Origin: Candidatus Shapirobacteria bacterium
GTDB taxonomy: Bacteria; Patescibacteriota; Microgenomatia; UBA12405
Length of the DNA stretch: 64,000 nt
Direction of reading: 5' to 3'
Assembly (NCBI GenBank): GCA_041661765.1
Contig: JBAZTV010000002.1
Span: forward strand, 139,130 to 203,129
The notes under the pieces were generated by a model. The model worked only from the letters and a program-made list of their open reading frames with translations. It was not told the DNA's origin and did no database searches. The translations under genes were made by a program, and so were the position numbers. The stretch's first letter is position 1. Every line of letters begins with the position of its first letter. This document shows, piece by piece, positions 11,401 to 54,763 of the stretch.

Positions 11401-14400
11401 TTACTTGTGTCTGTGACAGTATGTCCTGCTAAATCGGTTCCTATAACCTGAATTGTATAAATTCCATCGGCTACAATTTGGTTTGAATTGTTTTTACCAT
11501 CCCAAGAGATGTTTAGAGAATTTGTAATACTAGTAGAACCAAGATCTCTTACCTTAACTCCATGATCATCTAATATATTAATATCAGTATTCACTTCTTC
11601 AGAATAAGTGATATTAATATTTGTACCGGATACAGTATAAAAAGAAAGGGTGGGTGTAATGGTATCAATAATAGTTAAATTATTCTCTATAAAATTTATT
11701 ACGTAATTTGTTCCTGCATTAAGAGAACCTTGGGTAATTAAATAAGCACCTACTTCTTCACCTATTACGCGAGTGAGCGAACCAGATAATGTATCACCAA
11801 TAACCAAAGGTGAATTTGTGTAAGTTAGCGTAGAATCAGAGGTGCCTCTTTCTTTAGTCTGAACGTCAGCAGTGACAGTGATTGGCTTGGCATTTATGGT
11901 GAAGGTGCCAGGTTCAAAAAAAATAAAATAGTTAGTACTAGCGGCATTTGAGGCGGTGATAATGTAATTATTAACATTTTCACCTGTTGTACGGGTTAAA
12001 TTAACTAAGGTATCGAGAGATGTAGCGTCATCATCATTTATAAAACCGCTGTAAGAAGCGGTGAGAATTGGGTCAGTGTCACCATAAGTTTTATTACTAT
12101 TTTGAGCACTTATAATTAAATTTTTCTTATTTATGATAAACGATTGAGAAATATCTGGTGCGGCATTGTAGTTATCATCACCTGTTTGATGTGCAGTGAT
12201 TGTACAGCTGCCAGCTTTATTAATATGAATCATGTTATTTGATACATTACAGCCACCAAAAGCAGTGAAAGACACTAATAATCTGGAAGAGGCTGTGGCA
12301 ATAGTACTCACATTAAAATCAAAATCACCATAAGTTTTATTTTCTAAAGTGTTGAAAAATATATTTTGATCAAGTTTGTTTGTTGTGATATTTACACCAA
12401 CGCTTGCTACTGATTCATTAGTTGTTTCAGTTGCTTTGATTCTAGTGAAAAATGTATATTGGTGGTTTAGATTTAATTCTGTAAAAATTTCACTATCTTG
12501 CCAATTTACGCCATCTTCACTGAATTGATTTAAAACATTTGCAGTCAAAGTAACACTTGTAGTTGTTTTACTTACTAATATTGGTGCTGGTGGTGCCACT
12601 GGCCCATCCGCTTTAGTAATAACTTCGGTTGCAGTACTGGTAATAGAACCTGTCCCTACACCAACCTCTGCTGTTGCGGTTACTGTAATTATTGTTCCAA
12701 TATCAGCTAATCCTACTGTATAAGTGGATGCTGTTGCTCCATCTATATTTATGTCGTTACGTTTCCATTGATATGTTGGTGTCCCTGAGTTGGTTAAGGT
12801 TGGATTTACCATTAATGTGGTACCGAATTTAGTATCTCCTGTGATAACTATTGACCCGCTCATATTTTCAATCATATTAATACTGGTGGTTGTAGCATTA
12901 GAGCTTAGATACCAGTTATTTTGATTATCAAAATTACCACTTTCGGCTCCGACCAGTTTTGCGGAAACATTTATTGACTTACCAGCTAGCTCTGTTTTTG
13001 GAGTTAACGTGAAACGACATTTATAGGTTCCATTGGAATAACTTACTAATGATTGTCTATTGCCATTGATATTACTAAAATTGCTTAACCAAAAAGTAGT
13101 TTGATTATCGGCTAAGGTTAGAGTACCTAAATTAGTTTCACTGTTATCATTATTAATTTTTGTACCAGTAATTACGTAATCTTTTAAATTAATGTCATCA
13201 GGAAAATCAAGAGTTACTTGAGTGTCGACTTTATATTTTGTATCGAGACCAGTTAGATTACCAAAAGCTACATTACCGTCAATACTTGTTTGTTGGCCAG
13301 TGACTGTATTATATGATGATTCTTGAAAATTAATTGTTGGATTGATAATTTTAATACTAATACTTGATTCGTTTGAGGAGGTAAACCAATCTGTAGAATT
13401 GTTAAATTTATTGTCATCTTCAGCGACAACCACTTGATTTGTAATGTTTAGAGTCTTACCAGTAAGTGTAGTTAGATTAATTTTGAATCTGTAATTAATA
13501 TTTTCATTAGAATGATTTACCAAAGATGGTCTGATTTGTTGCATTAAATCATTTATTAACCATAAACTAGTTTGATTTTGGCCTAGAGTAATATTTCCTA
13601 TTGGTGTTTCAATATTGTCATTGACTATATAGCCGTCGATTTGAAGTCCAGCCAGATTAGTGCCAGCATTTAGGTCGATTTTTAAATCACTTTTATATTT
13701 TGAGTCTAAACCAGTGTAATCGCTGAAATTAACAGTATTAGTAAATATTGCCTGAGAATTGGATGAAATAGTTGGTTCTAGACTAGTAATAGTTGAAGTT
13801 ATGCCAATAATATTGACAGAGGAAGTGGCGGTATTAGAAACCATATACCAGTCGGCTGGATTATTAAAATTACCTTCTTCGGCCCCTACAGCTTGGGTGG
13901 ATAAACTGATTATTTTATTAGATAAGCTACTTGGTGGAACAAAAGTGAATTTGCAGGAATAATTTTTATTGGCATAATTTTGTAATGATGGTCTGGCTAC
14001 TTTAGTAAAATCGGATAACCAAACAACTGTTTGATTATCAGTTAAAGTGACATCTCCGATAGAAATTTCTTGTTGTTGACTGTTAAGACAAGTGACATCT
14101 ACATGAAGGTCTTTTAAATTGATACCTTGTGGAGGAATAAGGGTAACTTTTGTATCGATTTTGTATTTTGAATCAAGGTTGCTAAAATCGCCGTTTTCAA
14201 TAGTTGATTCGATAGTAGTAATTTGATTAGGGGCGGTAATATAGTTTGTCTTATCTAAAGATATGGTAAATCCAGCAATATTAACAAGACTATTTATAGT
14301 GTTTGAAGATGTAAACCAATTAGTAGAATTATCAAAATTAGTACTTTCGGCTGAAATAATTTTGGCCGAGACACCAATTGTTTTTCCAACTAAATCACTT

Positions 14401-15992
14401 TTTGGAGTTAAAGTGAAACGACATTTATAGGTTCCATTGGAATAACTTACTAATGATTGTCTATTGCCATTGATATTACTAAAATCGCTTAACCAAAAAG
14501 TAGTTTGATTATCGGCTAAGGTTAGAGTACCTAAATTAGTTTCACTGTTATCATTATTAATTTTTGTACCAGTAATTACGTAATCTTTTAAATTAATGTC
14601 ATCAGGAAAATCAAGAGTTACTTGAGTGTCGACTAAATATTTACTGTCAAGACCAGTTAAATTACCAAAAGTTCCTGTAGTAGTAATGGATCCAGGTGAA
14701 CCGGCGGCAAATGAATAATTGGCTTTATCATTAGTGAAGCCAATATTGGTGTCGATACCATTAATATTTAACTCAGTACCTGGGCTGAGTAGATACCAAT
14801 CATTTGGATTAGTGGTAAATTTATCACTTTCTGCCCCGACTAATTGAGAAGAAATATTCAGACTCTTAGCTGACATACCATCAGGTAATTTAAATTTAAT
14901 AGTGTAAGTTAAAGTTCCATAATTTCGGCCAACAAACATACTGTAATTCATTGATTGTCGACCAAAACCAAACAAATCACTAAATTGACTAATCCAAAAA
15001 CTACTTTGATCGGCAGGTAAAGTATAAGAGCCCATACTTTGGTAATTAGTTGTGCCTTTAACTTCACCAGTCATAGGAATACTGCCAGTGACACCTGTAG
15101 GTCGATTAAAAGTAATTAAAGTATCAAGTTTATATTTAGGATCAATATTAGAAAAATTTCCCAAATTTAAACTGATATAAAGAGTAACATCGGAACCGCT
15201 GGTGGTAGTTATACTAGAAATGCTAGTTGATCTGCCGGGATTTGTATTGCTTTGAGCAAAAATCACTGAAGAATTGGGCATTATTTGATCACTAGTAGGG
15301 ATAAAGATAGTAAAATGATTTAAATTTTTAATAGAAATCGAGGTATCTGTTTTTACAATGGCATTTTCTACTTTTTGAGCAGAATCAATTTTTGAAATTT
15401 CTTCGGCAAATTTTACACTAATATTTTCACCTCTTGATGATACTGGAATTGGCAAAGAAAGATTGTAAGTAAAAGAACCATCTGCCATATCCGAGGTAAT
15501 ACTATAAACTTTTTCTGACAAGGACTCTGTTTGCTCTATTTGTTCTTTAGTAAGAGTTATTTCTTCAATTTTTATATTACCTGCAGGACTAGGAAGCTTG
15601 GTAAAAGTTAATTTTATTTCATTATTTTGAGGAGCAATATATTCTTTATTTAATTCTACTTTTTCAAATGTCCATGGTGAAGGAATATTGGTTGGGGTTG
15701 GGGTTGATTGAATCGTTGGTGTTACCTCGATAGTTGAGGTTATAGTTGGAATTGCAGTCGGTTCAATAGTTGGTATAACTGTTGGTTCTAATAGTTCTGA
15801 TGTTGATGTTGATGTTGGAATTGCAGTTGGTTCAGTAATTTGAACAATTTCAGTGGGAGTGGGGATAGTTTCTTCGGCATAAACTGGTTGAGCAATAAAT
15901 AAAAATGGGGTGAAAGAATTCAATAAAAGAGAGATATTTGCGAGAATGGCAATAAATTTTTTTGCGGATTTTGTTTTAATCATAAAGGTCAA
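8454..15992 (-). CDS. giant secreted surface/adhesin-like repeat protein (2512 aa)
   Basis: The signal peptide is MTFMIKTKSAKKFIAILANISLLLNSFTPFLFIAQPVYA. A Thr/Pro-rich N-terminal linker follows. There are at least 7 copies of a module of about 155 aa with GLDSKYxVDTxVTL, NLKDY, DNQTxFWLSDF and GAExxNFxNxxNWY motifs. Two MBG-like segments (KTYGDFDF, KTYGDTDP) and Ig-like segments are present. A poly-Ser/Asn tract is followed by an FN3-like domain near the C-terminus. No LPXTG motif. Confidence 0.8.
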   Translation of the reverse strand: MTFMIKTKSAKKFIAILANISLLLNSFTPFLFIAQPVYAEETIPTPTEIVQITEPTAIPTSTSTSELLEPTVIPTIEPTAIPTITSTIEVTPTIQSTPTPTNIPSPWTFEKVELNKEYIAPQNNEIKLTFTKLPSPAGNIKIEEITLTKEQIEQTESLSEKVYSITSDMADGSFTYNLSLPIPVSSRGENISVKFAEEISKIDSAQKVENAIVKTDTSISIKNLNHFTIFIPTSDQIMPNSSVIFAQSNTNPGRSTSISSITTTSGSDVTLYISLNLGNFSNIDPKYKLDTLITFNRPTGVTGSIPMTGEVKGTTNYQSMGSYTLPADQSSFWISQFSDLFGFGRQSMNYSMFVGRNYGTLTYTIKFKLPDGMSAKSLNISSQLVGAESDKFTTNPNDWYLLSPGTELNINGIDTNIGFTNDKANYSFAAGSPGSITTTGTFGNLTGLDSKYLVDTQVTLDFPDDINLKDYVITGTKINNDNSETNLGTLTLADNQTTFWLSDFSNINGNRQSLVSYSNGTYKCRFTLTPKSDLVGKTIGVSAKIISAESTNFDNSTNWFTSSNTINSLVNIAGFTISLDKTNYITAPNQITTIESTIENGDFSNLDSKYKIDTKVTLIPPQGINLKDLHVDVTCLNSQQQEISIGDVTLTDNQTVVWLSDFTKVARPSLQNYANKNYSCKFTFVPPSSLSNKIISLSTQAVGAEEGNFNNPADWYMVSNTATSSVNIIGITSTITSLEPTISSNSQAIFTNTVNFSDYTGLDSKYKSDLKIDLNAGTNLAGLQIDGYIVNDNIETPIGNITLGQNQTSLWLINDLMQQIRPSLVNHSNENINYRFKINLTTLTGKTLNITNQVVVAEDDNKFNNSTDWFTSSNESSISIKIINPTINFQESSYNTVTGQQTSIDGNVAFGNLTGLDTKYKVDTQVTLDFPDDINLKDYVITGTKINNDNSETNLGTLTLADNQTTFWLSNFSNINGNRQSLVSYSNGTYKCRFTLTPKTELAGKSINVSAKLVGAESGNFDNQNNWYLSSNATTTSINMIENMSGSIVITGDTKFGTTLMVNPTLTNSGTPTYQWKRNDINIDGATASTYTVGLADIGTIITVTATAEVGVGTGSITSTATEVITKADGPVAPPAPILVSKTTTSVTLTANVLNQFSEDGVNWQDSEIFTELNLNHQYTFFTRIKATETTNESVASVGVNITTNKLDQNIFFNTLENKTYGDFDFNVSTIATASSRLLVSFTAFGGCNVSNNMIHINKAGSCTITAHQTGDDNYNAAPDISQSFIINKKNLIISAQNSNKTYGDTDPILTASYSGFINDDDATSLDTLVNLTRTTGENVNNYIITASNAASTNYFIFFEPGTFTINAKPITVTADVQTKERGTSDSTLTYTNSPLVIGDTLSGSLTRVIGEEVGAYLITQGSLNAGTNYVINFIENNLTIIDTITPTLSFYTVSGTNINITYSEEVNTDINILDDHGVKVRDLGSTSITNSLNISWDGKNNSNQIVADGIYTIQVIGTDLAGHTVTDTSKTITVDTTSPIITLIGDSVININIGSTYIDAGAIAFDNYDNDLKVIITGTVDTKNVGSYVIYYDAVDSSNNTAIQVIRTINVVDTKPQISFGEANYVTAVNQPIIISSSINFGDSTGFSSEYKVDVKISFQSDVNLKGLVINGFVNMGNGATTTFIPIVLNDNQITLWLKDFILQDRPSLVSRSNKNYTAYFYISAPANLAGKSIQVSSVAVVAKDEDFNNPNNWYNSSNIANVNLKIIGSTISFVNNQTNYSITPNSLQTIDSIIGFSDFSGLDSKYLVDTKVDFSPPVGINLKDYIITAIKINNDDTQTVLGTLTLGDNQTSFWLSDFTNIDRRSLVNYSNGTYKVRFIFTPKTNLAGKSMNISAQLIGAEDGNFDNPNNWYVSSNIITANINIIDNIAPIITINDYNHNPTNQDITVTATTNEGSLNTNSHIFTQNGTFDFIATDSVGNVTTETVTISNIDKSPPSIPSASIISGTYATSQTITLSSNGSSIIKYSNSVKLDNCNSGTIYTAPFLIDHSQIISVIACDLLGNMSSNIFSYNITQSIENTKPLVSDQGQLTMSNEIKLDNKSSLDLTSGINTVSGNKVTVDGFEVNLNNYNLGDLSAGVNLTEVKNVGDKSIKVEKAVTLQSSNNESIITLTNNSLNNIKVEIPNSTTILGPLNWNGKIEPPKSISNSGNAPSGFSVNNTAIEVGSPSVILLFDKPISIILNNVTGDVAYRPAGSNNWTRISQKCGGSYDNPNNPIFPGECYISNGINTKIFTYHFTTFAGLTKNSASSSSNNSSSSSSSNNSSSSSSSNNSSSSCSSSVCNDSKPESAPVLISARVTGFNEVTLTWKPAKGSVTYYLVAYGNKPGQMIYGNPNVGGRDTLSYTVKGLSIKNRYYFKVRAGNGCTPGDFSNEVSVVVTKGGSYVNQAVGFYPNVLGASTVNKRIKKPLNSNLIIPESTPKGVTPTEIQKQSDNSNKLFDYIKKIFSKFFF
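8989..9068. repeat. 27-bp tandem repeat, about 2.9 units
   Basis: gatgaattatttgaagaagatgaacta is repeated head-to-tail. On the minus strand it encodes the SSSNNSSSS low-complexity tract of the giant protein. Confidence 0.8.
13021..13270. repeat. intragenic direct repeat, copy 1 (about 250 bp, near-identical to 14408-14680)
   Basis: Runs of more than 200 bp are identical with only a few mismatches. It encodes VDTQVTLDFPDDINLKDYVITGTKINNDNSETNLGTLTLADNQTTFWLS... Confidence 0.8.
14408..14680. repeat. intragenic direct repeat, copy 2
   Basis: The same sequence as 13021-13270, 1387 bp downstream. This corresponds to a protein super-repeat of about 462 aa. Confidence 0.8.
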
Positions 15993-17432: not shown

Positions 17433-18410
17433 TTAATCAGATTTATTCAATTGTTTATGCCAATTCCAAGCGCTTGAGATTATAGTTTCTAAATCAAAAT
17501 ATTTTGGTTCCCATTTTAAAATTTCTCTGGCTTTTTTAGAATCAGCAATTAACTCCGGAGGATCACCAGCTCGACGATCAACCTCTGTCACTTTAAAATC
17601 AACACCTGTTACCTTTTTAGCCACTTCAATAACTTGCTTAACCGAAAAACCACTTCCATTACCCAAATTAAAACTATCACTTTCACCACCATCTATTAAT
17701 TTTTTAAGAGCCAAAATATGAGCTTGGGCCAAATCAGTTACATGAACATAATCACGTATACATGTTCCATCTGTAGTCGGATAATCTGTTCCAAAAATTT
17801 TTATATCTTCTCTTTTTCCCAATGCTGCATCCAAAATTAACGGAATCAAATGAGATTCTGGGTTATGATTTTCACCAATTTCGCCATCAAGATCAGCTCC
17901 ACAAGCATTAAAATATCTTAAAGCCACATATTTCAGTCCATAAGCCACATCATAATCAGCCAAAATTTTTTCTACCATTAATTTAGCCTGTCCATAAGGA
18001 TTAATTGGAATTTGTAAATGCTTTTCATCTATTGGAGAATATTGTGGATTACCAAAAGTTGCCGCTGTTGAAGAAAAAATTATTTTTTTAACATCATTTT
18101 CCAACATTACTTGAAATAAATTCAAAGTATTAGCCACATTATTTTTATAGTATTTTTGTGGATCTTTTACTGATTCACCAACCTCAATAAAAGCCGCAAA
18201 ATGTAAAATTGCATCAATTGGATATTTTTTAAATACTCCTCTAATGTCTTCAATATTTCCTAAATCGCCTTGAAAAAAATCACCCCATTTCACCGCCTCT
18301 TTATGTCCTTTAATTAAACTGTCAAAAACCACCGTCGTATAACCCTGTTTGTTTAATTCTTTATTGATATGGGATCCAATATATCCCGCCCCACCTACAA
18401 TTAAAATCAT
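17433..18410 (-). CDS. galE: UDP-glucose 4-epimerase
   Basis: MILIVGGAGYIGSHINKEL, a YxxxK active site, and a length of 325 aa. Confidence 0.85.
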   Translation of the reverse strand: MILIVGGAGYIGSHINKELNKQGYTTVVFDSLIKGHKEAVKWGDFFQGDLGNIEDIRGVFKKYPIDAILHFAAFIEVGESVKDPQKYYKNNVANTLNLFQVMLENDVKKIIFSSTAATFGNPQYSPIDEKHLQIPINPYGQAKLMVEKILADYDVAYGLKYVALRYFNACGADLDGEIGENHNPESHLIPLILDAALGKREDIKIFGTDYPTTDGTCIRDYVHVTDLAQAHILALKKLIDGGESDSFNLGNGSGFSVKQVIEVAKKVTGVDFKVTEVDRRAGDPPELIADSKKAREILKWEPKYFDLETIISSAWNWHKQLNKSD

Positions 18411-18458
18411 AAATTTATTAATTTCTAATTATTAAATTTTATCACCTAAACAACGTTT

Positions 18459-18500
18459 TCCCCTCCTTTCGTCAAAGGAGGGGATTAAGGGGTGGATTTA
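18459..18500. repeat. GC-rich palindromic mini-element, intergenic copy A
   Basis: TCCCCTCCTTT-CGTC-AAAGGAGGGGA is a perfect 11-bp stem (18459-18484). The tail TTAAGGGGTGGATTTA follows and overlaps the metK stop codon. It belongs to the same family as the copies at 20905, 21518 and 22895. Confidence 0.6.
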
Positions 18501-19598
18501 AATTTTTTCCCATGGATACCCATCGTACCCAAAATGTCCATATCTAGCCGTCTTTTGATAAATAGGTCTTTTTAAATCTAATTCATCAATAATTCCTTTA
18601 ACCGACAAATCTAATAAACTCCACACAAAATTTTCAATTGTGGCCAAATCTTTCTTTTCAGTTCCAAAAGTTTCAATTGATTTACCAATTGGATCCCTCT
18701 GTCCAATCACATAGGCTAATTGCACCTCGCACCTATCCGCTAAACCAGCCGCCACTACATTTTTTGCCAAAAATCTAACCGCATAAGCCCCACTTCTATC
18801 TACTTTTGTAGGATCTTTTCCTGAAAAACAACCACCACCAATCCTTCCCATTCCACCATAAGTATCCACCACAATTTTTCGACCAGTCACTCCAGTATCA
18901 CTCGCTGGACCACCAATTTCCCATTGGCCAGTACCATTAAATATAAATTTATTAAAATTAATCTTTTCTAATTTATATTTTTCTAAAATCGGCAAAACAA
19001 CCAATTCGTATAATTTATTTTTTACAAAATCTTTATCCACTCTTAAATCAAATGGCTTAGCTAAAACAATCTTTTTCACCCCCATCACTTTTCCGTTTTC
19101 ATAAGCCACAACTACCTCTGCTTTTCCATCAGGCCTCAAAAAATTTAATTCACCAAATTGCAATTCATCCATCTTTCGGCAAAACTCATGTGATAAAACT
19201 ATTGGCATTGGCATTAATTGCGGAGTTTCATTACAAGCATATCCAAACATCATTCCCTGATCACCAGCTCCATCATTATCTGCTCCCAAGGCAATATCTT
19301 TTGATTGTTGATGAATTGCCACATCAAAAACAGCATTTTTATTAAAACAAAACTCTGCCTTGTTGTAGCCTAAATTTTCAATAACCTGCTGTGCTATTTT
19401 TTGATAATTCAATGCAAAATTACAAGTCACTTCCCCAGCCATCGTCACTTTATTAGTTGTTACTAAAGTCTCAACTGCCACTCTCGAATTTTTATCAAAA
19501 GTTAATGCGGTATCTAATACTGCATCAGAAATCTGGTCACAAATTTTATCGGGATGACCAGCACATACCGATTCAGAAACAAAAAGGGGATAGTTCAT
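18498..19598 (-). CDS. metK: S-adenosylmethionine synthetase
   Basis: The protein starts MNYPLFVSESVCAGHPDKICDQISDAVLD. A perfect AGGAGG RBS lies 6 nt upstream of the ATG at 19598. The ORF-track start at 19646 is an upstream extension. Confidence 0.9.
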   Translation of the reverse strand: MNYPLFVSESVCAGHPDKICDQISDAVLDTALTFDKNSRVAVETLVTTNKVTMAGEVTCNFALNYQKIAQQVIENLGYNKAEFCFNKNAVFDVAIHQQSKDIALGADNDGAGDQGMMFGYACNETPQLMPMPIVLSHEFCRKMDELQFGELNFLRPDGKAEVVVAYENGKVMGVKKIVLAKPFDLRVDKDFVKNKLYELVVLPILEKYKLEKINFNKFIFNGTGQWEIGGPASDTGVTGRKIVVDTYGGMGRIGGGCFSGKDPTKVDRSGAYAVRFLAKNVVAAGLADRCEVQLAYVIGQRDPIGKSIETFGTEKKDLATIENFVWSLLDLSVKGIIDELDLKRPIYQKTARYGHFGYDGYPWEKI

Positions 19599-19651
19599 AT
19601 TTTTCCTCCTGTTAATTAATAAAGAGGCTTGTCTTTCTACTTTCATAGAAA

Positions 19652-19697
19652 AAGCACCGCGAGTCCAAAATTTCAGACCTCGGTTGCTGTCCTGATT
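19652..19697 (-). terminator. possible intrinsic terminator of the upstream membrane-protein gene
   Basis: On the minus strand an imperfect stem ACCGAGGTC...GACTCGCGGT is followed by GCTTTTT. Confidence 0.25.
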
Positions 19698-19739
19698 TTT
19701 TTTAAATCAAAACTCCTGACAAAGCAAATTAATACTAAA

Positions 19740-20705
19740 CTATTCATTATGAACTTTCAACTTTCCTTTAGTTTCTTTATCAAAAAACAATAAAATTCCA
19801 CCAAATAAAGAATTAATCACTCCTAAAATCCCTAAAAAGGCTGACATTAATAAAATACTTTCACTTGAACTACTAAATTGAGAAAAGAAAAATAAATATA
19901 GCTGTTCTCTCGCTCCAAAACCTCCAATTGAAATTGGTAAAACTAAAATCATCGAGATTATTGGAATAAAAACAAAAACTGCAAAAAGACTCAAATTAAT
20001 ACCAAATTGCCACGCCACAAACCAAATTTGCAAAATATAAAATAATTCACTTAAAAACGACACAAAAAGACATTTTATTATCTGAATTTTATTTTTATCT
20101 TTAAATAATTCAAAAGCATCATCCAACCTATGTAATAAAGTAAATTTGGGTAGTAATTTAGATACATCAAAAAAATAAATAATAAAATAAACCACAAAAC
20201 AAGCCCCGTTTAAAATAATTAATAAATAAAAGATTGTTTCTGGAATAATTAATCCTTTATTTACACCAATAAATGCCGATATTAAGCCCAAAATCATAAA
20301 AATTGAAAATCCTATAAACCTATCCAAAACTACCGATCCTAATATTTTTGTTTTTGAAATTTTTGGATATTCACCATCAATTACAATCCATTTTGCCACT
20401 TCACCCACAACCGCCGTTGAAAAAAACAATGAATAAAAAGTGGCCAAAAAATTAGCCCGAGAAAAAGTCAAAAAAGTTTTTACCTCAATTTTAGGAAACA
20501 ATAACAAACTCCATCGAACAGAAATTAAAACTACTATTAAAAAACTAAAAATTATATTTACAAGAACAAACCAAAATGGAACATTTTTTACATCATCAAA
20601 GAGTTTAATAATATCAACTTTTCTAAATGCAAAATAAATTAAAACTACTGAAAAAAATAATCTAAATAATCTCGACTTAAAAATTTTTTTAAAAATTTCC
20701 AACAT
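19740..20705 (-). CDS. flippase-like / lysylphosphatidylglycerol-synthase-TM-like membrane protein (UPF0104-like)
   Basis: 321 aa with 7-8 TM helices and a basic N-terminus. It is transcribed divergently from the GT operon. Confidence 0.4.
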   Translation of the reverse strand: MLEIFKKIFKSRLFRLFFSVVLIYFAFRKVDIIKLFDDVKNVPFWFVLVNIIFSFLIVVLISVRWSLLLFPKIEVKTFLTFSRANFLATFYSLFFSTAVVGEVAKWIVIDGEYPKISKTKILGSVVLDRFIGFSIFMILGLISAFIGVNKGLIIPETIFYLLIILNGACFVVYFIIYFFDVSKLLPKFTLLHRLDDAFELFKDKNKIQIIKCLFVSFLSELFYILQIWFVAWQFGINLSLFAVFVFIPIISMILVLPISIGGFGAREQLYLFFFSQFSSSSESILLMSAFLGILGVINSLFGGILLFFDKETKGKLKVHNE

Positions 20706-20748
20706 AAACTAACTATTAGAATAACACGAAGTATAATTAAACAAATTT

Positions 20749-21996
20749 ATGAAAATACTATTAATAAGTCATATTTTTCCTCCCGCCATCGATGGCGGTT
20801 CAAAAGTCATTTATAAACTTGGCCAATATTTTGAATCCCAAAATCATCAAACTCTTTATTTAAGTTCCAATTGTTCCAGCACTGACGACTTCATCAAAAA
20901 AAGTCCTGCCCTGTCAAGGGAAGGATTTAGGAAGGGTTTTATAAAACTGCCCACATATCACCATCTTCGCCGACCCTTAAAATTTCTAAATTTATTTTTA
21001 AAACAAGATTTATTAAAAGTTTTTCAAAAAGGCCCGATTTTTAAAATTTTTCCGTTTCTAAAAGCCACTTATCAAATTTTAAAATTCAAACCCGATTTAA
21101 TTATCGCCGGTCCACTTCCAACAACTATTATTCTATATGCTGTTTTTTTCAAAAAAATAACTAATTCCAAACTTCTAATCAATGCTTCCTTCCACCCCAC
21201 CGACCAAGACTTTCAACAAAAACCACTAATTAATACCTTAAAAAAGGCAGATTTTTTGTGGACTCTTACTCAATCAGAAACTGATTATTTTACAAAAAAT
21301 TTTAATATCGACCCAAAAAAAATAATTCTCGCCGGCAACGGTGTCGATTATAATTTTTTAAAAAAATCAAAAATTCCCCGTCTTGTCTCGGCCAAAAGCC
21401 GATCCGCCTCTGGCGGAAAGGGAGGCTTAGGAAGCTTTAACATCTTATTCATCGGTTCTCTTGCCGCCCATAAACGCGTCGACATTTTAATTAAGTCTTT
21501 TTCAGATATTTTAGCGTCCCGCCCTGTCAAGGGAGGGATTGAGGGAGGGTTTAAACTTACTATCGCCGGCCAAAAAACCCTCTTCTATTCTCAAATCGAA
21601 AAACTAATCAATTCCCTTGACCCAAAATTAAAATCTAAAATCAATTTTATTTTTAATTTTAATCAAAAAGATTTGGCTAAAATAATTGATAATTGCTCTG
21701 TTTTAGTTTTACCCTCAGTTCAGGAAAGTTTTGGTTTAGTTATTGTCGAAGCCTGGGCTCGGCAAAAACCAGTAATTTGTGCCGATATTCCAGCATTAAA
21801 AGAATTAGTCCAAAATTCAAATGGGGGATTATTGTTTAAAACCAATGATCAATCAGATTTAACAAAAAAAATTCAAGAAATCATAGACAATCCAAAAAAA
21901 TCAGAACAAATGGGGAAAAATGGTTACAATTATGTTAAAAACAATTATACTTGGAATAATGTAGGAAATAAAATATGCCAAAAAATATTATGCTGA
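20749..21996 (+). CDS. glycosyltransferase family 4 carrying three in-frame mini-element insertions
   Basis: The N-terminus is MKILLISHIFPPAIDGGSKV and the C-terminal region is VLPSVQESFGLVIVEAWA...G. GC-rich inserts encode PALSREGFRKGFIKL, SAKSRSASGGKGGLGSF and ASRPVKGGIEGGFKL. Confidence 0.75.
   Translation: MKILLISHIFPPAIDGGSKVIYKLGQYFESQNHQTLYLSSNCSSTDDFIKKSPALSREGFRKGFIKLPTYHHLRRPLKFLNLFLKQDLLKVFQKGPIFKIFPFLKATYQILKFKPDLIIAGPLPTTIILYAVFFKKITNSKLLINASFHPTDQDFQQKPLINTLKKADFLWTLTQSETDYFTKNFNIDPKKIILAGNGVDYNFLKKSKIPRLVSAKSRSASGGKGGLGSFNILFIGSLAAHKRVDILIKSFSDILASRPVKGGIEGGFKLTIAGQKTLFYSQIEKLINSLDPKLKSKINFIFNFNQKDLAKIIDNCSVLVLPSVQESFGLVIVEAWARQKPVICADIPALKELVQNSNGGLLFKTNDQSDLTKKIQEIIDNPKKSEQMGKNGYNYVKNNYTWNNVGNKICQKILC
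20905..20941. repeat. palindromic mini-element copy B (intragenic, in-frame)
   Basis: CCTGCCCT-GTCA-AGGGAAGG hairpin with one mismatch, plus the tail ATTTAGGAAGGGTTTTA. Confidence 0.6.
21405..21441. repeat. related mini-element copy E (sub-family with CCGCC-TCT-GGCGG hairpin)
   Basis: CCGCCTCTGGCGG, then AAAGGGAGGCTTAGGAAGCTTTAA. The tail is homologous to the copy B tail. It encodes SASGGKGGLGSF. Confidence 0.45.
21518..21555. repeat. palindromic mini-element copy C (intragenic, in-frame)
   Basis: CCCGCCCT-GTCA-AGGGAGGG, plus the tail ATTGAGGGAGGGTTTAAA. Confidence 0.6.
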
Positions 21997-22433
21997 TAAT
22001 TACTCCTGTTTTAATAATAATTGCCGGAATTTTAATTTGGCGATTATTTTTTTATTTACCACCAGCTAACTCTATTAAGATCAAAATTGCCAACATTAAT
22101 TACAATATTGAATTAGCCACAACCATCGCCCAAAAAACAAAAGGGTTATCTGAACGAAATATTCTCTGTAAAAATTGCGGTATGCTTTTTACTTTTAGTT
22201 TTGAAACTAATTTGCCTTTTTGGATGAAAAACACTCTAATTCCTCTCGATATGATTTGGCTCGATAAAAATGGAAAAGTAGTTGATATTCAAACCGCCGT
22301 TGAAATTAATTCAAATAAAATTTACCAAAACCAAATTCCCGCCCAATATGTCCTTGAACTAAATGCTAATGATTCACAAAAAATAGGCCTAAAAATAGGT
22401 GACATTATTGATCTTTCAAAGATAAATGACTAA
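21975..22433 (+). CDS. DUF192-domain protein
   Basis: GLSERNILCKNCGMLFTFSFETNLPFWMKNTLIPLDMIWLDKNGKVV matches the DUF192/COG1430 core. There is an N-terminal TM anchor. Confidence 0.55.
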   Translation: MPKNIMLIITPVLIIIAGILIWRLFFYLPPANSIKIKIANINYNIELATTIAQKTKGLSERNILCKNCGMLFTFSFETNLPFWMKNTLIPLDMIWLDKNGKVVDIQTAVEINSNKIYQNQIPAQYVLELNANDSQKIGLKIGDIIDLSKIND

Positions 22434-23412
22434 TTTTTCTATTATTATTCCAAATTACAATGGTGCTTCATTTTTAACTAACTGTCTTAATTCTTTAAAA
22501 CAAGCAATAGATAATTGTCCTAATTCTGAATTCGAAATAATTCTAATCGATAACAACTCAAAAGATGATAGCCTTAAAATTTTTGAAATTATAATTCCTA
22601 AAAATTTTAATTATCGAATATTACTAAACTCAAAAAATTATGGATTCGCCAGTGCTGTTAATCAAGGAATTGAAAAAGCCAAATATGAATATGTAGTCTT
22701 ATTAAATAATGACCTCACCATGGAACCAAATTGGTTTCAGTTAATTTCTAAAACAATTAAAAAAAATAAAAATCCAAAAATCGCCACATTTTTCGGTACT
22801 GTTCTAAATAAAGAAGGCACAAAATTTGAATCCCAAGGTCTAAAATTTTTTTATTCCGGCAAATGTCAAAACATTTCCAACAGGGACAAATTCACCCCCT
22901 CCTTGTCAAAGGAGGGGGTTGGGGGTGGATTAGTTTGGGGTGCTTCCGCTGCTTTTATTGTCTACAATAAAAAAATATTAAAACAAATTGGTCTTTTTGA
23001 TTCTGATTTTTTTGCTTATTTGGAAGATGTCGATTTATCCCTCCGTCTTCATAATTTAAATTATCAAACTTTTTATATTCCCAAAGCTATTTCTTATCAC
23101 TTCGGTGGTGGCACCAGTAAAACTATGAAGAATATTCGCAGTCGATTATCCTATCGAAATTGGTTCTTCATAATTATAAAGAACTATTCTTCAAAAGAAT
23201 TTTTTACCAATTTTTCAAATATTTTAATTGAAAGATGTCACAACTTATCATATTTCTTTAAAGAAACCATTTCTGTTTATAAATGGAAATCTATTATAAT
23301 TTTTCCGTTCGATTTTATAAAAACATCTCTTGAAATTTTCATTTTACTCCCCAAAATATTAAAAAAACGAAAAACAATTCAAAAATTGATAAAATTAAAC
23401 AACTTAATATGA
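22426..23412 (+). CDS. glycosyltransferase family 2
   Basis: MTNFSIIIPNYNGASFLTNCLNSL...ILIDNNSKDDS...NNDL is a GT-A fold DxD region. The gene also carries an in-frame mini-element (PSLSKEGVGGGLVW). Confidence 0.75.
   Translation: MTNFSIIIPNYNGASFLTNCLNSLKQAIDNCPNSEFEIILIDNNSKDDSLKIFEIIIPKNFNYRILLNSKNYGFASAVNQGIEKAKYEYVVLLNNDLTMEPNWFQLISKTIKKNKNPKIATFFGTVLNKEGTKFESQGLKFFYSGKCQNISNRDKFTPSLSKEGVGGGLVWGASAAFIVYNKKILKQIGLFDSDFFAYLEDVDLSLRLHNLNYQTFYIPKAISYHFGGGTSKTMKNIRSRLSYRNWFFIIIKNYSSKEFFTNFSNILIERCHNLSYFFKETISVYKWKSIIIFPFDFIKTSLEIFILLPKILKKRKTIQKLIKLNNLI
22895..22936. repeat. palindromic mini-element copy D (intragenic, in-frame)
   Basis: CCCCCTCCTT-GTCA-AAGGAGGGGG is a perfect 10-bp stem. 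The tail is TTGGGGGTGGATTAGTTT. Compare copy A, whose tail is TTAAGGGGTGGATTTA. Confidence 0.65.
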
Positions 23413-32412: not shown

Positions 32413-33512
32413 AGTCCGCCTCTGGTGGAAAAAAGCCAAAAATTGCTCTGTTCTATGATTGGTTAAATCAATGGGGTGGAGCCGAAAAAGTTTTACTTGA
32501 CTTAATTAAACTTTATCCTGAAGCTCCAATTTATACACTTGTCCACGATCCAAAAAAAACTAAATGGCTTCCAAAAAATACTAAAATTATTGCCTCATTT
32601 ATAAACAATCTTCCATTTTCAAAAAACAATCCAATTTTTTACACTCCATTATATTCAATTGCTCTCGAACAATTTGATTTTTCTCAATACGACATCATTA
32701 TTTCTACTACCCAAGTCTGCGGTCACTGTTTTATAACTCAACCAAAAACTCTTTACGTTTGCTATTTCCATAATATTAATCGTTACGTTTATCAAACTCC
32801 GCCCCAATTCCAAATTTTAAAACCGCTTCTAAATCAATATAAAAAAATAGATTTTGTTTATGGTCAACGACCTAACTATTTGTTTTGTAATTCAAAAACA
32901 GTTCAAAAGAGAATTAAAAATGCCTACAAAAGAGAAGCAAAAATAATTTATCCTGGCATCGACACTTCTTTTTTTATTCCTTCAAAAATAAATCCAACTG
33001 AAAAATATTTTTTAATTGTTTCCCGTCTAGTTTCCCATAAAAAAATCGATCTAGCCATTAAAGCCTGTCATAGATTGAATCAAAAATTATACATTGTCGG
33101 CACCGGCCGCGATAAAAATAAATTAATTAATCTAATCGATTCCATAAATGATTCAAATATAAAATTATTAGGAAAGGTTGATAATAATAAATTATTAAAT
33201 CTTTATCAAAATTGTCAGGCTTTAATTTGCCCTCAGTTAGAAGATTTTGGTCTAACTCCACTCGAAGCCCAAGCTTGTGGTAAACCAATTATTGCCTATA
33301 ATAAGGGAGGTTTAACTGAAACTATAAATTTAAAAACCGGAATATTTTTTAAAAATCAAACCGTAAAAAGTATTATTCATGCCATCAAAAAATTTAATCC
33401 CAAAGATTTTTCGCCATCTGATTGTATTTCTAATGCTGCCAAATTTTCTATCCAAAATTTTATGCTAAACTTTAAAAAAGAAATTAACCTCTTATGGCAG
33501 AATCATCAATAA
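32397..33512 (+). CDS. glycosyltransferase family 4
   Basis: 371 aa. The N-terminus KSASGGKKPKIALFYDWLNQWGGAEKVLLDL includes a mini-element-like sequence (32415-32437). Confidence 0.7.
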   Translation: MRNEVKSASGGKKPKIALFYDWLNQWGGAEKVLLDLIKLYPEAPIYTLVHDPKKTKWLPKNTKIIASFINNLPFSKNNPIFYTPLYSIALEQFDFSQYDIIISTTQVCGHCFITQPKTLYVCYFHNINRYVYQTPPQFQILKPLLNQYKKIDFVYGQRPNYLFCNSKTVQKRIKNAYKREAKIIYPGIDTSFFIPSKINPTEKYFLIVSRLVSHKKIDLAIKACHRLNQKLYIVGTGRDKNKLINLIDSINDSNIKLLGKVDNNKLLNLYQNCQALICPQLEDFGLTPLEAQACGKPIIAYNKGGLTETINLKTGIFFKNQTVKSIIHAIKKFNPKDFSPSDCISNAAKFSIQNFMLNFKKEINLLWQNHQ

Positions 33513-39140: not shown

Positions 39141-39857
39141 ATGAAGAAATCAATAATAATTTTTATTTCAATTAGTGTTATCATTTTAGTCTCATTAATT
39201 TTATTTTTTACGTTAGGTAAAAAAAATACTTCTAATACTAAAATCACCACTAAAAATACTACTCCAGTCACTAAAAAAATTGAATTATCCGCCGATGAAA
39301 AACCCTACATTAGCCTTATTCCCAGTTCTGAAGGCCATAATTTAATTTTTAAAGTTAAAGACATTCCGACTAAATTTACCACCGCCGAATATGAGTTAAT
39401 CTACACTGCTAAAGATGAAAATATAGAAATCGAAAAAGGAGTCAGCGGTACAATTGAGTTATCCGGAGGTGTTTTTGAAAAAGACCTATTATTAGGCACT
39501 GCCAGCTGCACCAACGGTTGTAAATATAAATACGATGAAGGTGTCACTGGAGGAATCCTCACCCTTACTCTAAAAACAAATAATAAAGAATACTTCTCTT
39601 ACGAAACGCCATTCGTTCTAACAAATTCCACCGATATTAATAAAGAAAAAAAATTAACTCTAATTGAAGAAAATTTTATTATCAATGGCACTGTCACTTC
39701 TAAAAGTGATTATTTCATCGCTCTTAAAAATTTACAATCCCTTTATTCCGTCTTCTCCAGTGGTAATGGTAAAGGCAAAATCACTTCAATTGAGCCAGCC
39801 ACTGTTATTAAAACTGACTTAACCTCAATAACTGGTGATTACACTATTACTCAATAA
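39141..39857 (+). CDS. hypothetical membrane-anchored/secreted protein
   Basis: N-terminal TM helix. No recognisable domain. Confidence 0.3.
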   Translation: MKKSIIIFISISVIILVSLILFFTLGKKNTSNTKITTKNTTPVTKKIELSADEKPYISLIPSSEGHNLIFKVKDIPTKFTTAEYELIYTAKDENIEIEKGVSGTIELSGGVFEKDLLLGTASCTNGCKYKYDEGVTGGILTLTLKTNNKEYFSYETPFVLTNSTDINKEKKLTLIEENFIINGTVTSKSDYFIALKNLQSLYSVFSSGNGKGKITSIEPATVIKTDLTSITGDYTITQ

Positions 39858-40741
39858 TGGAATTTCACACTCCCGTTCTATTAAGTGAAACCATTGATCT
39901 TCTTGATGTCCAAAAAAATAAAATTTATATTGATGGTACCCTCGGTCATGGTGGACACACTCTAGAAATTCTCAAAAAAGGTGGCATCGTTTATGGTATC
40001 GATCAAGATCCAAAAAATTTAGAAATCGCCATCAATCGAATCAAAGAAGCAGGATTTGAAAAACAATTTTTTCCAATTCACAATAATTTTAATCAATTAG
40101 AAAATATTATTAATAAAAAGATTAAACAAAAGATCGACGGTATAGTAATTGATCTCGGTATCAGTCAAAATCAACAAACAGATCAAGACAGGGGGTTTTC
40201 ATTTAATGACGAAAACTCTCTCGATATGAGATTAGATCCAGAAAATCAGGAATTAACCGCCGAAGAAATTATTAACACCTACAACTACGACGAACTTTTT
40301 GAAATATTTAGTAAATATGCCCAAGAGGTTTATAGTAAGCCATTAATTTTAAAAATAATTCGCGAGCGTCAAAAATCACCAATAAAAACTGCCACAAGAC
40401 TGGCAAATATTATTAGAGACTTTTACAAAGAACGCCATTTAAAATCTAAAATCGACCCCAGTACTAAAATATTTTTAAGTCTCAGAATTGTCGTCAACGA
40501 TGAATTTAATAATTTAAAAAATATTCTTATCCAAAGTTTAAAAATAGTCGCCTCAAATGGTAATGTCTGTATAATTTCTTTTAATTCCGGTGAAGATCGA
40601 ATTGTTAAACAATTTATCAGGAAATATGCTGATCAAAAAACTATTATCGAAAATAAAAAATCTATTAAAACCTCTTTTCAAGAAATAAAGAAAAACCCTT
40701 TATCTCGCTCAGCCACCTTAAGATCGTATAGAATAGTATAA
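39857..40741 (+). CDS. rsmH: 16S rRNA (cytosine1402-N4)-methyltransferase
   Basis: MEFHTPVLLSETIDLL...YIDGTLGHGGH. First gene of the dcw cluster. Confidence 0.9.
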   Translation: MEFHTPVLLSETIDLLDVQKNKIYIDGTLGHGGHTLEILKKGGIVYGIDQDPKNLEIAINRIKEAGFEKQFFPIHNNFNQLENIINKKIKQKIDGIVIDLGISQNQQTDQDRGFSFNDENSLDMRLDPENQELTAEEIINTYNYDELFEIFSKYAQEVYSKPLILKIIRERQKSPIKTATRLANIIRDFYKERHLKSKIDPSTKIFLSLRIVVNDEFNNLKNILIQSLKIVASNGNVCIISFNSGEDRIVKQFIRKYADQKTIIENKKSIKTSFQEIKKNPLSRSATLRSYRIV

Positions 40742-40742
40742 G

Positions 40743-41000
40743 ATGCTAAACAAACCATTTTTTTTACTCATCTTTTTTTTGATCATCATTCAAGTCGTCT
40801 TTTCATTTTATTATTCCAGTGAAATTATTAATCAAAATAATCTAATCAATCAAAATCAAGTTACTCTTCAATCTTTTAAAATTGAAAATCAAGAATTAGA
40901 GGAAAAATTAGCCATCCTTTCTTCTTTAACCAAAATTGAAGCCACTGCCAGTCAAAAAAAATATATAAATTTGAAAGAAACTATTAATCTCAAAAATTAA
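40743..41000 (+). CDS. ftsL: FtsL-like small bitopic cell-division protein
   Basis: 85 aa with one TM helix followed by a coiled-coil region. It sits between rsmH and ftsI. Confidence 0.45.
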   Translation: MLNKPFFLLIFFLIIIQVVFSFYYSSEIINQNNLINQNQVTLQSFKIENQELEEKLAILSSLTKIEATASQKKYINLKETINLKN

Positions 41001-41001
41001 A

Positions 41002-42654: not shown

Positions 42655-42667
42655 TTGAATACTTTCA

Positions 42668-43969: not shown

Positions 43970-43970
43970 T

Positions 43971-44579: not shown

Positions 44580-44581
44580 TT

Positions 44582-45955: not shown

Positions 45956-45958
45956 TCT

Positions 45959-47287: not shown

Positions 47288-47290
47288 TTT

Positions 47291-48846: not shown

Positions 48847-48861
48847 AATAAAAATCAAAAT

Positions 48862-49020
48862 CTATTTTTCCTCGATTAATTCTCGATATTTTAGTGGAGT
48901 CAAAGATAAAATCTCTACCTCAGTCCCACATTCAGGACATTCAATAATATCTCCCACCATTGTGGCTTCTATTAATTCAATTTCTGTTTCACAATCTGGA
49001 CAAATAACTTTTTCGTTCAT
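48862..49020 (-). CDS. 52-aa LysW-like double CPxCG zinc-ribbon protein (absent from the ORF track)
   Basis: The minus-strand translation is MNEKVICPDCETEIELIEATMVGDIIECPECGTEVEILSLTPLKYRELIEEK. Compare Thermus LysW, ...CPECGAELRL...CEDCGAELEVVGLDPLRLE... The C-terminus ends EEK, not the acceptor EDWGE. Confidence 0.45.
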   Translation of the reverse strand: MNEKVICPDCETEIELIEATMVGDIIECPECGTEVEILSLTPLKYRELIEEK

Positions 49021-54761: not shown

Positions 54762-54763
54762 AT

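What the first reader, a model, noticed from the sequence alone, without database searches (positions are those of the whole stretch)
18459..18500. Intergenic copy of the same element forms an 11-bp perfect hairpin overlapping the metK stop codon
TCCCCTCCTTT-CGTC-AAAGGAGGGGA is followed by TTAAGGGGTGGATTTA. It sits between the metK stop and the galE start on the minus strand. Its last three nucleotides are the metK TAA. This shows the element is not restricted to GT genes. It may act as a transcript-stabilising or attenuating stem-loop between metK and galE.
Basis: seen in the sequence. Interest (0 to 1): 0.55.

Follow-up and report, generated by a model that had tools for sequence, protein, structure and literature searches.

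The report
Triplex-type mini-repeat beside metK stop
The hairpin after metK is one copy of a roughly 40-base G/C-rich repeat family of Shapirobacteria, built like E. coli's BoxC "intrastrand triplex" repeats and scattered between and inside genes; it looks like a passenger insertion, not a metK-galE control element.

Summary
At 18459-18484 there is a perfect 11-bp hairpin with loop CGTC. A G-rich tail follows, and its end abuts the metK stop codon. The tail is not an appendage: it is the mirror image of the hairpin's purine arm (G to G, A to A or T).

The window holds four such elements, all with the G-rich strand on +: 18460-18496, 20904-20937, 21517-21550 and 22895-22930. One hundred random windows held none. 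Related copies occur in Shapirobacteria (candidate phyla radiation) MAGs and in unnamed metagenome contigs, in intergenic DNA and in frame inside ligA, miaA, trxB and glycosyltransferase genes, in both orientations.

Across 20 distinct variants, 163 of 177 positions form canonical purine-motif triplets (C-G·G, T-A·A, T-A·T). This is the class II intrastrand-triplex architecture known from E. coli BoxC/PIT/TMECO, down to the TTA second loop and a recurrent G·A mismatch.

The metK-galE site is filled in some relatives, empty in one, and holds other inserts in others. About 17 nt of the metK end are duplicated around the insert.

No terminator, Rfam match or transposase was found. The verdict is a new member of a known kind; a regulatory role is unsupported.

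The parts
18459..18469 (+). Pyrimidine arm Y (TCCCCTCCTTT) of element A. Its first four bases also belong to the duplicated target segment.
18470..18473 (+). Loop 1 (CGTC). In the family register the conserved loop is GTCA, at 18471-18474.
   Evidence: GTCA is present in nearly all family members.
18474..18484 (+). Purine arm R1 (AAAGGAGGGGA), the Watson-Crick partner of Y.
   Evidence: Searches show 11 of 11 pairs.
18485..18487 (+). Loop 2 (TTA), the same as in E. coli TMECO type A.
18488..18498 (+). Third-strand domain R2 (AGGGGTGGATT). It is the mirror image of R1, with G to G and A to A or T at 11 of 11 positions.
18498..18511 (+). TTAAATTTTTTCCC, the complement of the functional metK 3' end (GGGAAAAAATTTAA), including the stop codon at 18498-18500. 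This is the upstream copy of the duplicated target.
18446..18462 (+). CTAAACAACGTTTTCCC, the complement of GGGAAAACGTTGTTTAG. This is the second, now non-coding copy of the metK 3' end, left on the galE side of the insert.
   Evidence: it aligns with the empty-site metK end of L023.
18498..19598 (-). metK (S-adenosylmethionine synthetase). The ORF is open up to 19646.
17433..18410 (-). GalE-type NAD-dependent epimerase gene.
20904..20937 (+). Copy D: TCCTGCCCT GTCA AGGGAAGGA TTT AGGAAGGGT. It lies in frame in the GT4 gene 20749..21996 and encodes the peptide SPALSREGFRKGF.
21517..21550 (+). Copy C: TCCCGCCCT GTCA AGGGAGGGA TTG AGGGAGGGT. It lies in frame in the same GT4 gene and encodes ASRPVKGGIEGGF.
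22895..22931 (+). Copy B: CCCCCTCCTT GTCA AAGGAGGGGG TT GGGGGTGGATT. It lies in frame in the GT2 gene 22426..23412 and encodes TPSLSKEGVGGGL.
21375..21436 (+). A degenerate, composite G/C-rich patch in the GT4 gene. It has the Y-like CCCCGTCTT, two nested mini-hairpins and a G-rich tail. It is probably a decayed copy at the site where L004, L019 and L024 carry intact ones.

Best explanation
The feature is one copy (element A, about 40 nt, G-rich strand on +) of a dispersed G/C-rich repeat family of Candidatus Shapirobacteria. Its architecture is pyrimidine arm, GTCA loop, complementary purine arm, short loop, then a second purine segment that mirrors the first.

This is the class II purine-motif intrastrand-triplex layout described for E. 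coli BoxC/PIT/TMECO. As single-stranded DNA, the G-rich strand can fold into a hairpin whose major groove is filled by the tail, forming G·G-C, A·A-T and T·A-T triplets.

What is shown: the three-part covariation, the multiple subfamilies, the presence/absence polymorphism, identical copies at unrelated sites in one genome, and the duplication of the metK end around the insert.

What is inferred: (1) the fold, or a factor that reads it, is needed for the element to be copied or retained, because sequence varies while the three-strand register is kept; (2) copies spread by a copy-and-paste process that uses short homologies between the element ends (TTTTCCC..., ...GGATTTAAA) and A/T-rich or pyrimidine-tract targets, most simply template switching at a stalled fork, rather than by a classical transposase; (3) the copy at metK-galE is a passenger. 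It landed in the TTTAA that holds the metK stop codon and duplicated about 17 nt, so metK kept an intact end. It has no dedicated regulatory role, although its hairpin will form in the metK-galE transcript.
For: Architecture:
- In 15 distinct elements, 133 of 134 R2 positions obey the mirror rule, against 111 of 134 for a direct-repeat rule.
- When R1 and R2 were re-paired among 12 R1 types, none of 100,000 permutations reached the observed score. Shuffled tails gave a mean of 92.8 (sd 3.2, maximum 107).
- In 20 elements, 163 of 177 triplets are C-G·G, T-A·A or T-A·T.
- Loop 2 may be replaced by a nested G/C mini-hairpin (CGGCGAAGCCG, CCCCGCAGCAGCGGGG) with the register preserved.

Not chance: four class II motifs occur in the window and none in 100 random windows.

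Family and spread:
- The exact 28-mer occurs in three Shapirobacteria MAGs, in three different contexts.
- Fifteen metagenome loci were found, in sense, antisense and intergenic positions.
- In L024 a 40-nt block is identical at the metK junction and in a GT4 gene 2.3 kb away, with unrelated flanks.
- 59 kb of syntenic DNA in L022, L023 and L025 holds no copies.

Insertion at this site:
- L023 has the empty site ...GATAGTTTAATGGTAG....
- The DNA beyond the insert aligns with the empty-site metK end from GGGAAAA onward.
- A second filled/empty pair exists in trxB.

Known precedent: PMC4666352 describes TMECO as CCCTCNCCC-N3-6-GGGNGAGGG-N3-GGGNGAGGG, with loop 2 TTA and a frequent G·A mismatch subtype. 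It forms a single-stranded DNA triplex in vitro and has no promoter or terminator activity.

No Rfam hit, terminator or transposase was found in the window.
Against: - No tool here can model or detect a triplex, so the fold is inferred from covariation only.
- For E. coli TMECO the triplex was not seen in duplex DNA or by in vivo DMS footprinting.
- The 40-nt core (R2 through R1) at the metK junction is far better conserved than its flanks. Window versus L003 shows 1 of 40 differences, against 19 of 89 and 15 of 55 in the flanks. This could mean a local function rather than concerted evolution or recent copying.
- All filled metK junctions have the same orientation.
- The copying mechanism rests on three or four junctions, which are not uniform: a 17-nt duplication at metK, none at trxB, and none for the L024 copy.
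- Only fragments of genomes were available, so there is no genome-wide census and no test for an associated enzyme.
Confidence: 0.7

Rival explanations
1. The element is a cis-acting RNA hairpin that terminates, attenuates or stabilises the metK transcript upstream of galE.
For: The hairpin is strong in the metK-sense RNA (-23.1 kcal/mol, z = -2.8). It sits immediately after the stop codon. Its core is much better conserved than its flanks in window, L021 and L003. REP-type hairpins are known to stabilise upstream mRNA in E. coli (my own knowledge).
Against: No U-tract follows, and the terminator scan finds nothing. There is no Rfam family match. The junction is empty in L023 and holds unrelated inserts in L020 and L022. 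The same element lies in frame inside genes and in both orientations. The mirror-image tail has no role in a plain hairpin model. PIT/TMECO showed no terminator or promoter activity.
Confidence: 0.1
2. The element is a protein-recognition site, for example for a structure-specific nuclease, recombinase or nucleoid protein. On this view the mirror symmetry reflects protein contacts, not a DNA triplex.
For: The GTCA loop and the terminal ATT/GTT are conserved while the arms vary. Copies are maintained at orthologous sites with co-ordinated changes, as at site D in the window versus L021.
Against: Dimeric proteins read inverted or direct repeats, not mirror repeats. The permitted substitutions (G to G only; A to A or T) are exactly the purine-motif triplet code. 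The register survives replacement of loop 2 by a 13-18-nt hairpin. No candidate gene was seen in the window.
Confidence: 0.12
3. The element is a G-quadruplex-forming (or i-motif-forming) element.
For: Element A has G-runs GG, GGGG, GGGG and GG.
Against: Several members have only two G-runs of two or more bases, such as AAGGGAGA...AGAGGGA in L002, L006, L015 and L018. A G4 model explains neither the mirrored A/T positions nor the complementary pyrimidine arm.
Confidence: 0.03
4. The similarity reflects chance, or a relic or gene-conversion patch of glycosyltransferase coding sequence.
For: In one frame, copy A reads ...GGFK, like copy C (my own reading).
Against: Copies occur in ligA, miaA, trxB (antisense) and intergenic DNA, in different frames. 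Random windows gave no hits.
Confidence: 0.02

Closest known systems
E. coli BoxC / PIT element / TMECO, a class II purine-motif intrastrand triplex repeat (Holder et al. 2015, PMC4666352; Hoyne et al. 2000 as cited there)
   Same: The domain order is the same: C-rich arm, loop of 3-6 nt, G-rich arm, loop of 3 nt, second G-rich arm. The size is about 35-40 nt. Loop 2 is TTA. A T sits opposite an A-T pair in the third strand. A common subtype has a G in the pyrimidine arm opposite an A (CCCTCGCCCC/GGGGAGAGGG versus CCCGCCCT/AGGGAGGG here). Copy number is patchy between close relatives. No linked transposase is known.
   Different: The TMECO sequence pattern is absent from every fetched locus. 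Here loop 1 is a conserved GTCA, the stems are 7-11 nt, and there are many sequence subfamilies. The host is a 30% G+C CPR bacterium, not a proteobacterium. TMECO is always intergenic in E. coli K-12, whereas this family is often in frame inside genes. Some members carry a nested hairpin in loop 2.
Rickettsia palindromic elements (RPE)
   Same: Both are selfish palindromic repeats that sit in frame inside housekeeping protein genes as well as between genes, in small A/T-rich genomes. This rests on my own knowledge; the RPE literature was located but not read.
   Different: RPEs are about 100-150 bp, are not homopurine/homopyrimidine, and have no mirror-repeat third domain. There is no sequence similarity.
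REP/BIME elements and cyanobacterial small dispersed repeats (my own knowledge; REP is also summarised)
   Same: They are 20-40-nt G/C-rich hairpin repeats present in many copies, with occasional effects on mRNA stability.
   Different: REPs are extragenic, carry a conserved GTAG-type head, are tied to RAYT transposases, and have no third strand.
G+C clusters and double-hairpin elements of fungal mitochondrial DNA (my own knowledge)
   Same: They are short G/C-rich foldable elements that invade very A/T-rich genomes, including coding regions, at A/T-rich targets with short duplications.
   Different: They occur in organelles, form hairpins only, and are unrelated in sequence.

Membership tests
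Class II purine-motif intrastrand triplex motif (ITxF definition, PMC4666352) | The 5' to 3' order is pyrimidine domain, purine domain, reverse-Hoogsteen domain on one strand. | tested here: met
   Y is at 18459-18469, R1 at 18474-18484 and R2 at 18488-18498.
Class II purine-motif intrastrand triplex motif (ITxF definition, PMC4666352) | Stems of 6-15 nt with at most one mismatch, and loops of 1-6 nt. | tested here: met
   The stem is 11 nt with no mismatches, and the loops are 4 and 3 nt. My own scanner using these rules found this copy and three others.
Class II purine-motif intrastrand triplex motif (ITxF definition, PMC4666352) | The triplets are G·G-C and A·A-T or T·A-T, with the third strand antiparallel to the purine strand. 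| tested here: met
   All 11 triplets fit in this copy, and 163 of 177 fit across 20 family members. The mirror rule beats the direct-repeat rule.
Class II purine-motif intrastrand triplex motif (ITxF definition, PMC4666352) | The DNA actually folds into a triplex, as shown by CD, NMR or footprinting. | not testable with these tools
   ViennaRNA models only the hairpin.
TMECO / BoxC family of Enterobacteria | The sequence pattern CCCTCNCCC-N3-6-GGGNGAGGG-N3-GGGNGAGGG. | tested here: not met
   There were no matches in any fetched locus, and none of the four window copies listed has this sequence.
TMECO / BoxC family of Enterobacteria | Loop 2 is TTA (type A) or CCG (type B). | tested here: met
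   This copy has TTA. The family also uses TT, TTT, TTG, TA or a nested hairpin.
TMECO / BoxC family of Enterobacteria | The location is exclusively intergenic. | tested here: not met
   This copy is intergenic, but copies B, C and D, and copies in ligA, miaA and trxB, are in frame inside genes.
Rho-independent terminator | A G/C-rich stem-loop followed directly by a U/T run on the transcribed strand. | tested here: not met
   On the - strand the stem is followed by AAAACGTTG. The scan reports no terminator at this site.
REP / RAYT system | Extragenic palindromes with a conserved tetranucleotide head and a RAYT (Y1 HUH transposase) gene in the genome. | tested here: inconclusive
   There is no GTAG-type head, and many copies are intragenic. 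No transposase domain was found in the ORFs scanned (about 50 of the 54 ORFs of 100 aa or more). The whole genome was not available.
MITE | Terminal inverted repeats matching an IS element, a fixed-length target-site duplication, and a length of about 50-500 bp. | tested here: not met
   Identical blocks end within 2-3 nt of the triplex motif. Duplication length varies from 0 to 17 nt between sites.
Known Rfam RNA family | A score at or above the gathering threshold of any Rfam 15 model. | tested here: not met
   The only hit was a chance one at 21 bits, against a 70-bit threshold.

The most novel reading that the evidence does not exclude
These elements may be a self-propagating DNA repeat whose unit of selection is a three-stranded fold. 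On this reading the intrastrand triplex, or a stalled fork or host factor that it recruits, drives microhomology-guided copying into new sites. Those sites include loops of essential proteins, in a minimal-genome CPR bacterium with no dedicated transposase. The three-way covariation across a dozen or more subfamilies would then be the first evolutionary (comparative) evidence that a DNA triplex is under selection in vivo, which experiments on E. coli BoxC could not show.
Probability: 0.25. Interest if true: 0.8.

Novelty: new member of a known kind. Interest (0 to 1): 0.5.

Why it matters
The biological role of intrastrand triplex repeats (BoxC/PIT/TMECO) has been open since the 1990s. E. coli copies are nearly identical, so they give no comparative signal. 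The Shapirobacteria family offers many diverged subfamilies that keep the three-strand register, natural variants with a hairpin in loop 2, filled and empty sites, and lineages that lack the element. Selection on the triplex fold, and the copying mechanism, therefore become directly testable.

There are practical consequences too. The elements add 10-13 residue G/P/S-rich loops to CPR proteins such as LigA, MiaA, TrxB and glycosyltransferases. They extend or rebuild gene ends, as at metK, which matters for annotation and for structure prediction. For the specific question asked, the result removes a false lead: the metK-galE hairpin should not be annotated as a terminator or attenuator.

Tried and rejected
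- An Rfam scan of 16-24 kb at permissive E-values gave nothing relevant.
- The promoter/terminator scan found no terminator at the site.
- I tested whether the tail is an alternative Watson-Crick partner (a direct repeat of R1, acting as a switch). This was rejected: 111 of 134 positions fit, against 133 of 134 for the mirror rule, and non-symmetric members fit only the mirror rule.
- A G-quadruplex is not possible for subfamilies with only two G-runs.
- The TMECO sequence pattern has no matches.
- CRISPR repeat: the ...GGATTGAAAC ends in L002 look CRISPR-like, but the two units differ and are 11 nt apart.
- A short fixed target-site duplication (TTAAA) was replaced by the longer, site-specific duplication plus microhomology picture.
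- In viral contigs, the A/B-type pattern has no hits, and the single D-type hit (L027) lacks the mirrored tail and lies in G/C-rich DNA.
- Literature searches for CPR together with palindromic repeats found nothing specific.
- The exact-protein lookup with the long metK ORF failed; the shorter start at 19598 is the one on record.
- The blastn-short output was mostly A/T-rich noise.
- L010 from the metagenome scan is a G-run without a pyrimidine arm, so it is a chance match.

Full report
**1. The observation**

The sequence is as described. TCCCCTCCTTT (18459-18469), CGTC and AAAGGAGGGGA (18474-18484) form a perfect 11-bp hairpin, followed by TTAAGGGGTGGATTTA up to 18500.

The ORF on the minus strand ending at 18498 is MetK. 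It carries the three S-AdoMet synthetase domains, and its close homologues are 366-370 aa long. The next minus-strand ORF (17433-18410) is a GalE-type epimerase. The stop codon TAA is the complement of 18498-18500.

The hairpin proper does not touch the stop codon; only the last base of the tail does.

The window is about 30% G+C, so this 40-nt G/C-rich block stands out. As RNA it folds at about -23 kcal/mol on either strand, with z near -2.7.

**2. It is one of a family**

A scan for G/C-rich islands and GTCA-looped hairpins found three more copies in the window:
- D (20904-20937) and C (21517-21550), both inside a GT4 gene;
- B (22895-22931), inside a GT2 gene.

All three are in frame, and all have the G-rich strand on +.

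The exact 28-mer of copy A occurs in three Candidatus Shapirobacteria MAGs:
- at the same metK-galE junction (L003);
- inside the orthologous GT4 gene (L004);
- in an intergenic tandem next to a variant copy (L002).

A degenerate pattern retrieved 15 metagenome loci. Copies lie in the sense direction inside LigA, MiaA, a membrane protein and GT genes. One family lies antisense inside TrxB. Others are upstream of a Mur ligase gene or in intergenic DNA. The element is therefore not tied to glycosyltransferases, to a gene orientation or to a reading frame.

**3. Anatomy: three strands, not two**

Comparing variants showed that the tail is not arbitrary. Every element has the same five parts:
- a pyrimidine arm Y;
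- a loop, almost always GTCA;
- a purine arm R1 that is complementary to Y;
- a short second loop (TT, TTA, TTT, TTG or TA, or a nested G/C mini-hairpin such as CGGCGAAGCCG);
- a second purine segment R2 that is R1 read backwards, with G kept as G and A kept as A or replaced by T.

The statistics are as follows:
- For 15 distinct elements, 133 of 134 positions obey this mirror rule, against 111 of 134 for a direct-repeat rule.
- Re-pairing R1 and R2 among 12 R1 types never reached the observed score in 100,000 permutations. Shuffled tails averaged 92.8 matches.
- In 20 elements, 163 of 177 Y/R1/R2 columns are C-G·G, T-A·A or T-A·T.

Mirror symmetry cannot arise from template copying and is not what dimeric proteins read. 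It is the code of the antiparallel purine-motif triple helix. Copy A satisfies it at 11 of 11 positions.

A scanner for this grammar finds four hits in the window and none in 100 Markov-random windows.

The frequent T opposite A-T pairs is allowed in the purine motif on the G-rich strand. It would be a mismatch in a pyrimidine-motif triplex on the C-rich strand. According to PMC4666352, purine-motif triplexes do not form in RNA. The structured species is therefore most likely single-stranded DNA of the G-rich strand. Some loop-2 hairpins contain GCGAAGC, which I recall as an exceptionally stable DNA mini-hairpin (my own knowledge).

**4. The known counterpart**

A literature search led to Holder et al. 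2015 (PMC4666352). It describes intrastrand triplex motifs in four classes. It also describes the E. coli BoxC/PIT/TMECO repeat, 5'-CCCTCNCCC-N3-6-GGGNGAGGG-N3-GGGNGAGGG, as a class II purine-motif element.

The Shapirobacteria elements have the same domain order and size, and the same TTA second loop. They share a T opposite an A-T pair in the third strand. They also share a recurrent subtype with a G in the pyrimidine arm opposite an A: TMECO "A mm" has CCCTCGCCCC/GGGGAGAGGG, and copies C, D, L011, L014, L024 and L026 here have CCCGCCCT/AGGGAGGG.

They do not match the TMECO sequence pattern. Unlike TMECO, which is always intergenic in E. coli K-12, they are often inside genes.

For TMECO, the single-stranded DNA triplex was demonstrated in vitro. 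It was not detected in duplex DNA or in vivo. No promoter or terminator activity was found, and the loci are unusually variable between strains.

**5. The metK-galE junction in relatives**

Nine orthologous junctions were recovered:
- Four carry an A-type copy in the same place and orientation: the window, L021 (MetK 87% identical), L003 (78%) and L026 (81%, a diverged copy with loop TTTT).
- L024 carries a D-type copy that is read through into a longer MetK tail.
- L025 carries a decayed hairpin.
- L023 (81%) is empty, with a 35-nt spacer: ...GATAGTTTAATGGTAGAATTT....
- L020 (93%) has a different short repeat (GATCGTAGAT, twice).
- L022 has an inserted Avd-like gene.

The element is therefore not a fixed part of the operon.

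Its core is nevertheless much better conserved than its surroundings. Window versus L003 shows 1 of 40 differences, against 19 of 89 in the metK 3' coding DNA and 15 of 55 downstream. By my arithmetic this has a binomial probability of about 4e-4. This points to constraint on the element, concerted evolution or recent copying. It is the main observation that keeps a local function alive.

**6. How it got there**

The DNA on the galE side of the insert aligns with the empty-site metK end from GGGAAAA onward. L023 reads GGGAAAAGATAGTTTAATGGTAGAATTT, and the window reads GGGAAAACGTTGTTTAGGTGATAAAATTT. So about 17 nt of the metK end (GGGAAAA-N5-TTTAA) occur twice, flanking a 33-35-nt core. The upstream copy now provides the last codons and the stop codon. 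The GGGG of the downstream copy forms the outer end of the hairpin. This explains why the element seems to overlap the stop codon.

The target already contained TTTTCCC and TTAAA. These match the two ends of A-type elements (TTTTCCCC... and ...GGATTTAAA).

Other junctions give a less uniform picture:
- In trxB, the filled and empty alleles differ by a net 30 nt. The pyrimidine arm lies on a pre-existing GAAGGAGAA tract, and there is no duplication.
- At GT4 site 2, the empty allele has TTTCCTTAAC where the filled one has the element.
- In L024, a 40-nt block is identical at two unrelated sites 2.3 kb apart, and the identity stops within 2-3 nt of the triplex motif.

Variable duplication length together with microhomology fits copy-choice or template switching better than a transposase. 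This is an inference from a few junctions.

No transposase, integrase, HUH or reverse-transcriptase domain was found in the roughly 50 of 54 window ORFs (100 aa or more) that were scanned. Three syntenic relatives (59 kb) have no copies at all, and A/T-rich "ghosts" of the same length sit at some sites. The family therefore appears to be gained, maintained and decayed lineage by lineage.

**7. Function at this locus**

The transcript of metK-galE carries the C-rich complement, and its hairpin will form. There is no U-run, terminator call or Rfam family match. The junction is dispensable in relatives, and the characterised E. coli analogue lacks terminator activity.

I therefore rate the attenuator/stabiliser idea at about 0.1. 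The best-supported reading is a passenger copy of a triplex-type selfish or structural repeat.

**8. Verdict**

- The kind is known (class II intrastrand triplex repeats). This is a new family in a new phylum, with unusual properties: many covarying subfamilies, in-frame residence in essential genes, and nested hairpin loops.
- Interest is moderate for the locus itself. It is higher for the family, because the three-way covariation is comparative evidence for selection on a DNA triplex.

Noticed in passing
L020 2913-2975; L021 GT4 gene, site 1 (about 660-700): A second mini-repeat family was seen. GATCGTAGAT occurs twice in the metK-galE spacer of L020, and its complement ATCTACGATC is repeated inside the GT4 gene of L021. 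These are the same two sites that host the triplex elements in other lineages.
   Followed up: partly
window 21404-21416 and 32416-32428: The mini-hairpin CCGCCTCTGG(C/T)GG occurs twice, against 0.02 expected. Both copies are inside GT genes and encode SASGGK. One lies within the degenerate patch 21375-21436, next to another mini-hairpin, CGGCCAAAAGCCG.
   Followed up: partly
TrxB homologues P0121-P0240; L012 4228-4262; L028 (empty): One surface loop of thioredoxin reductase (EI-x-GEEKL) is empty in most Microgenomates homologues. In different lineages it carries many different 8-25-residue inserts, such as NPPPTPSFDKD, NPSRPLAESPLDRGDSN, NPPALRAPSLEKGGQNQ and NYELPITNYELE. It is a hot spot for small-repeat insertion.
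   Followed up: partly
L022 11170-11517: In one relative, a gene with 23S_rRNA_IVP / bAvd domains lies between metK and galE. These domains are the accessory protein type of diversity-generating retroelements. The gene is flanked by TAGCTAGTAGC / AATAGCCAATTAG-type repeats that extend the MetK C-terminus.
   Followed up: no
window 20904-20937 versus L021 1135-1166 and L023 (site D of the GT4 gene): At one orthologous site, R1 and R2 differ between genomes in a co-ordinated way: AGGGAAGGA/AGGAAGGG versus AGGGAGGAA/AAGGAGGG. L023 has an A/T-rich stretch of the same length that looks like a G-to-A decayed ghost of the element.
   Followed up: partly
window 18460-22930; whole-window GC skew: All four copies have the G-rich strand on +, the strand with negative GC skew throughout the window. 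parB lies at 61207-62049, so the origin may be near. A possible orientation bias relative to replication could not be tested with four copies.
   Followed up: no
window 8454-15992 (-): There is a 2512-aa ORF with MBG, bacterial Ig-like and fibronectin type III domains. It is a giant surface protein next to the polysaccharide cluster.
   Followed up: no
window 39857-55939: A complete division and cell-wall (dcw) cluster is present: mraW, ftsI, murE/F-type ligases, murA, mraY, ftsW, murG, ftsA and ftsZ. It follows a long glycosyltransferase/Wzy polysaccharide cluster (20.7-35.2 kb). A Fic-domain gene lies at 6033-7082.
   Followed up: no
MetK homologues P0028, P0043, P0003, P0039: Several Shapirobacteria MetK proteins have C-terminal extensions of 5-30 residues, for example ...PWEKTNPSPTLPLTGQGVNF. 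These are translations of repeat elements inserted at the stop codon. Gene ends in these genomes are being rebuilt by mini-repeats.
   Followed up: partly
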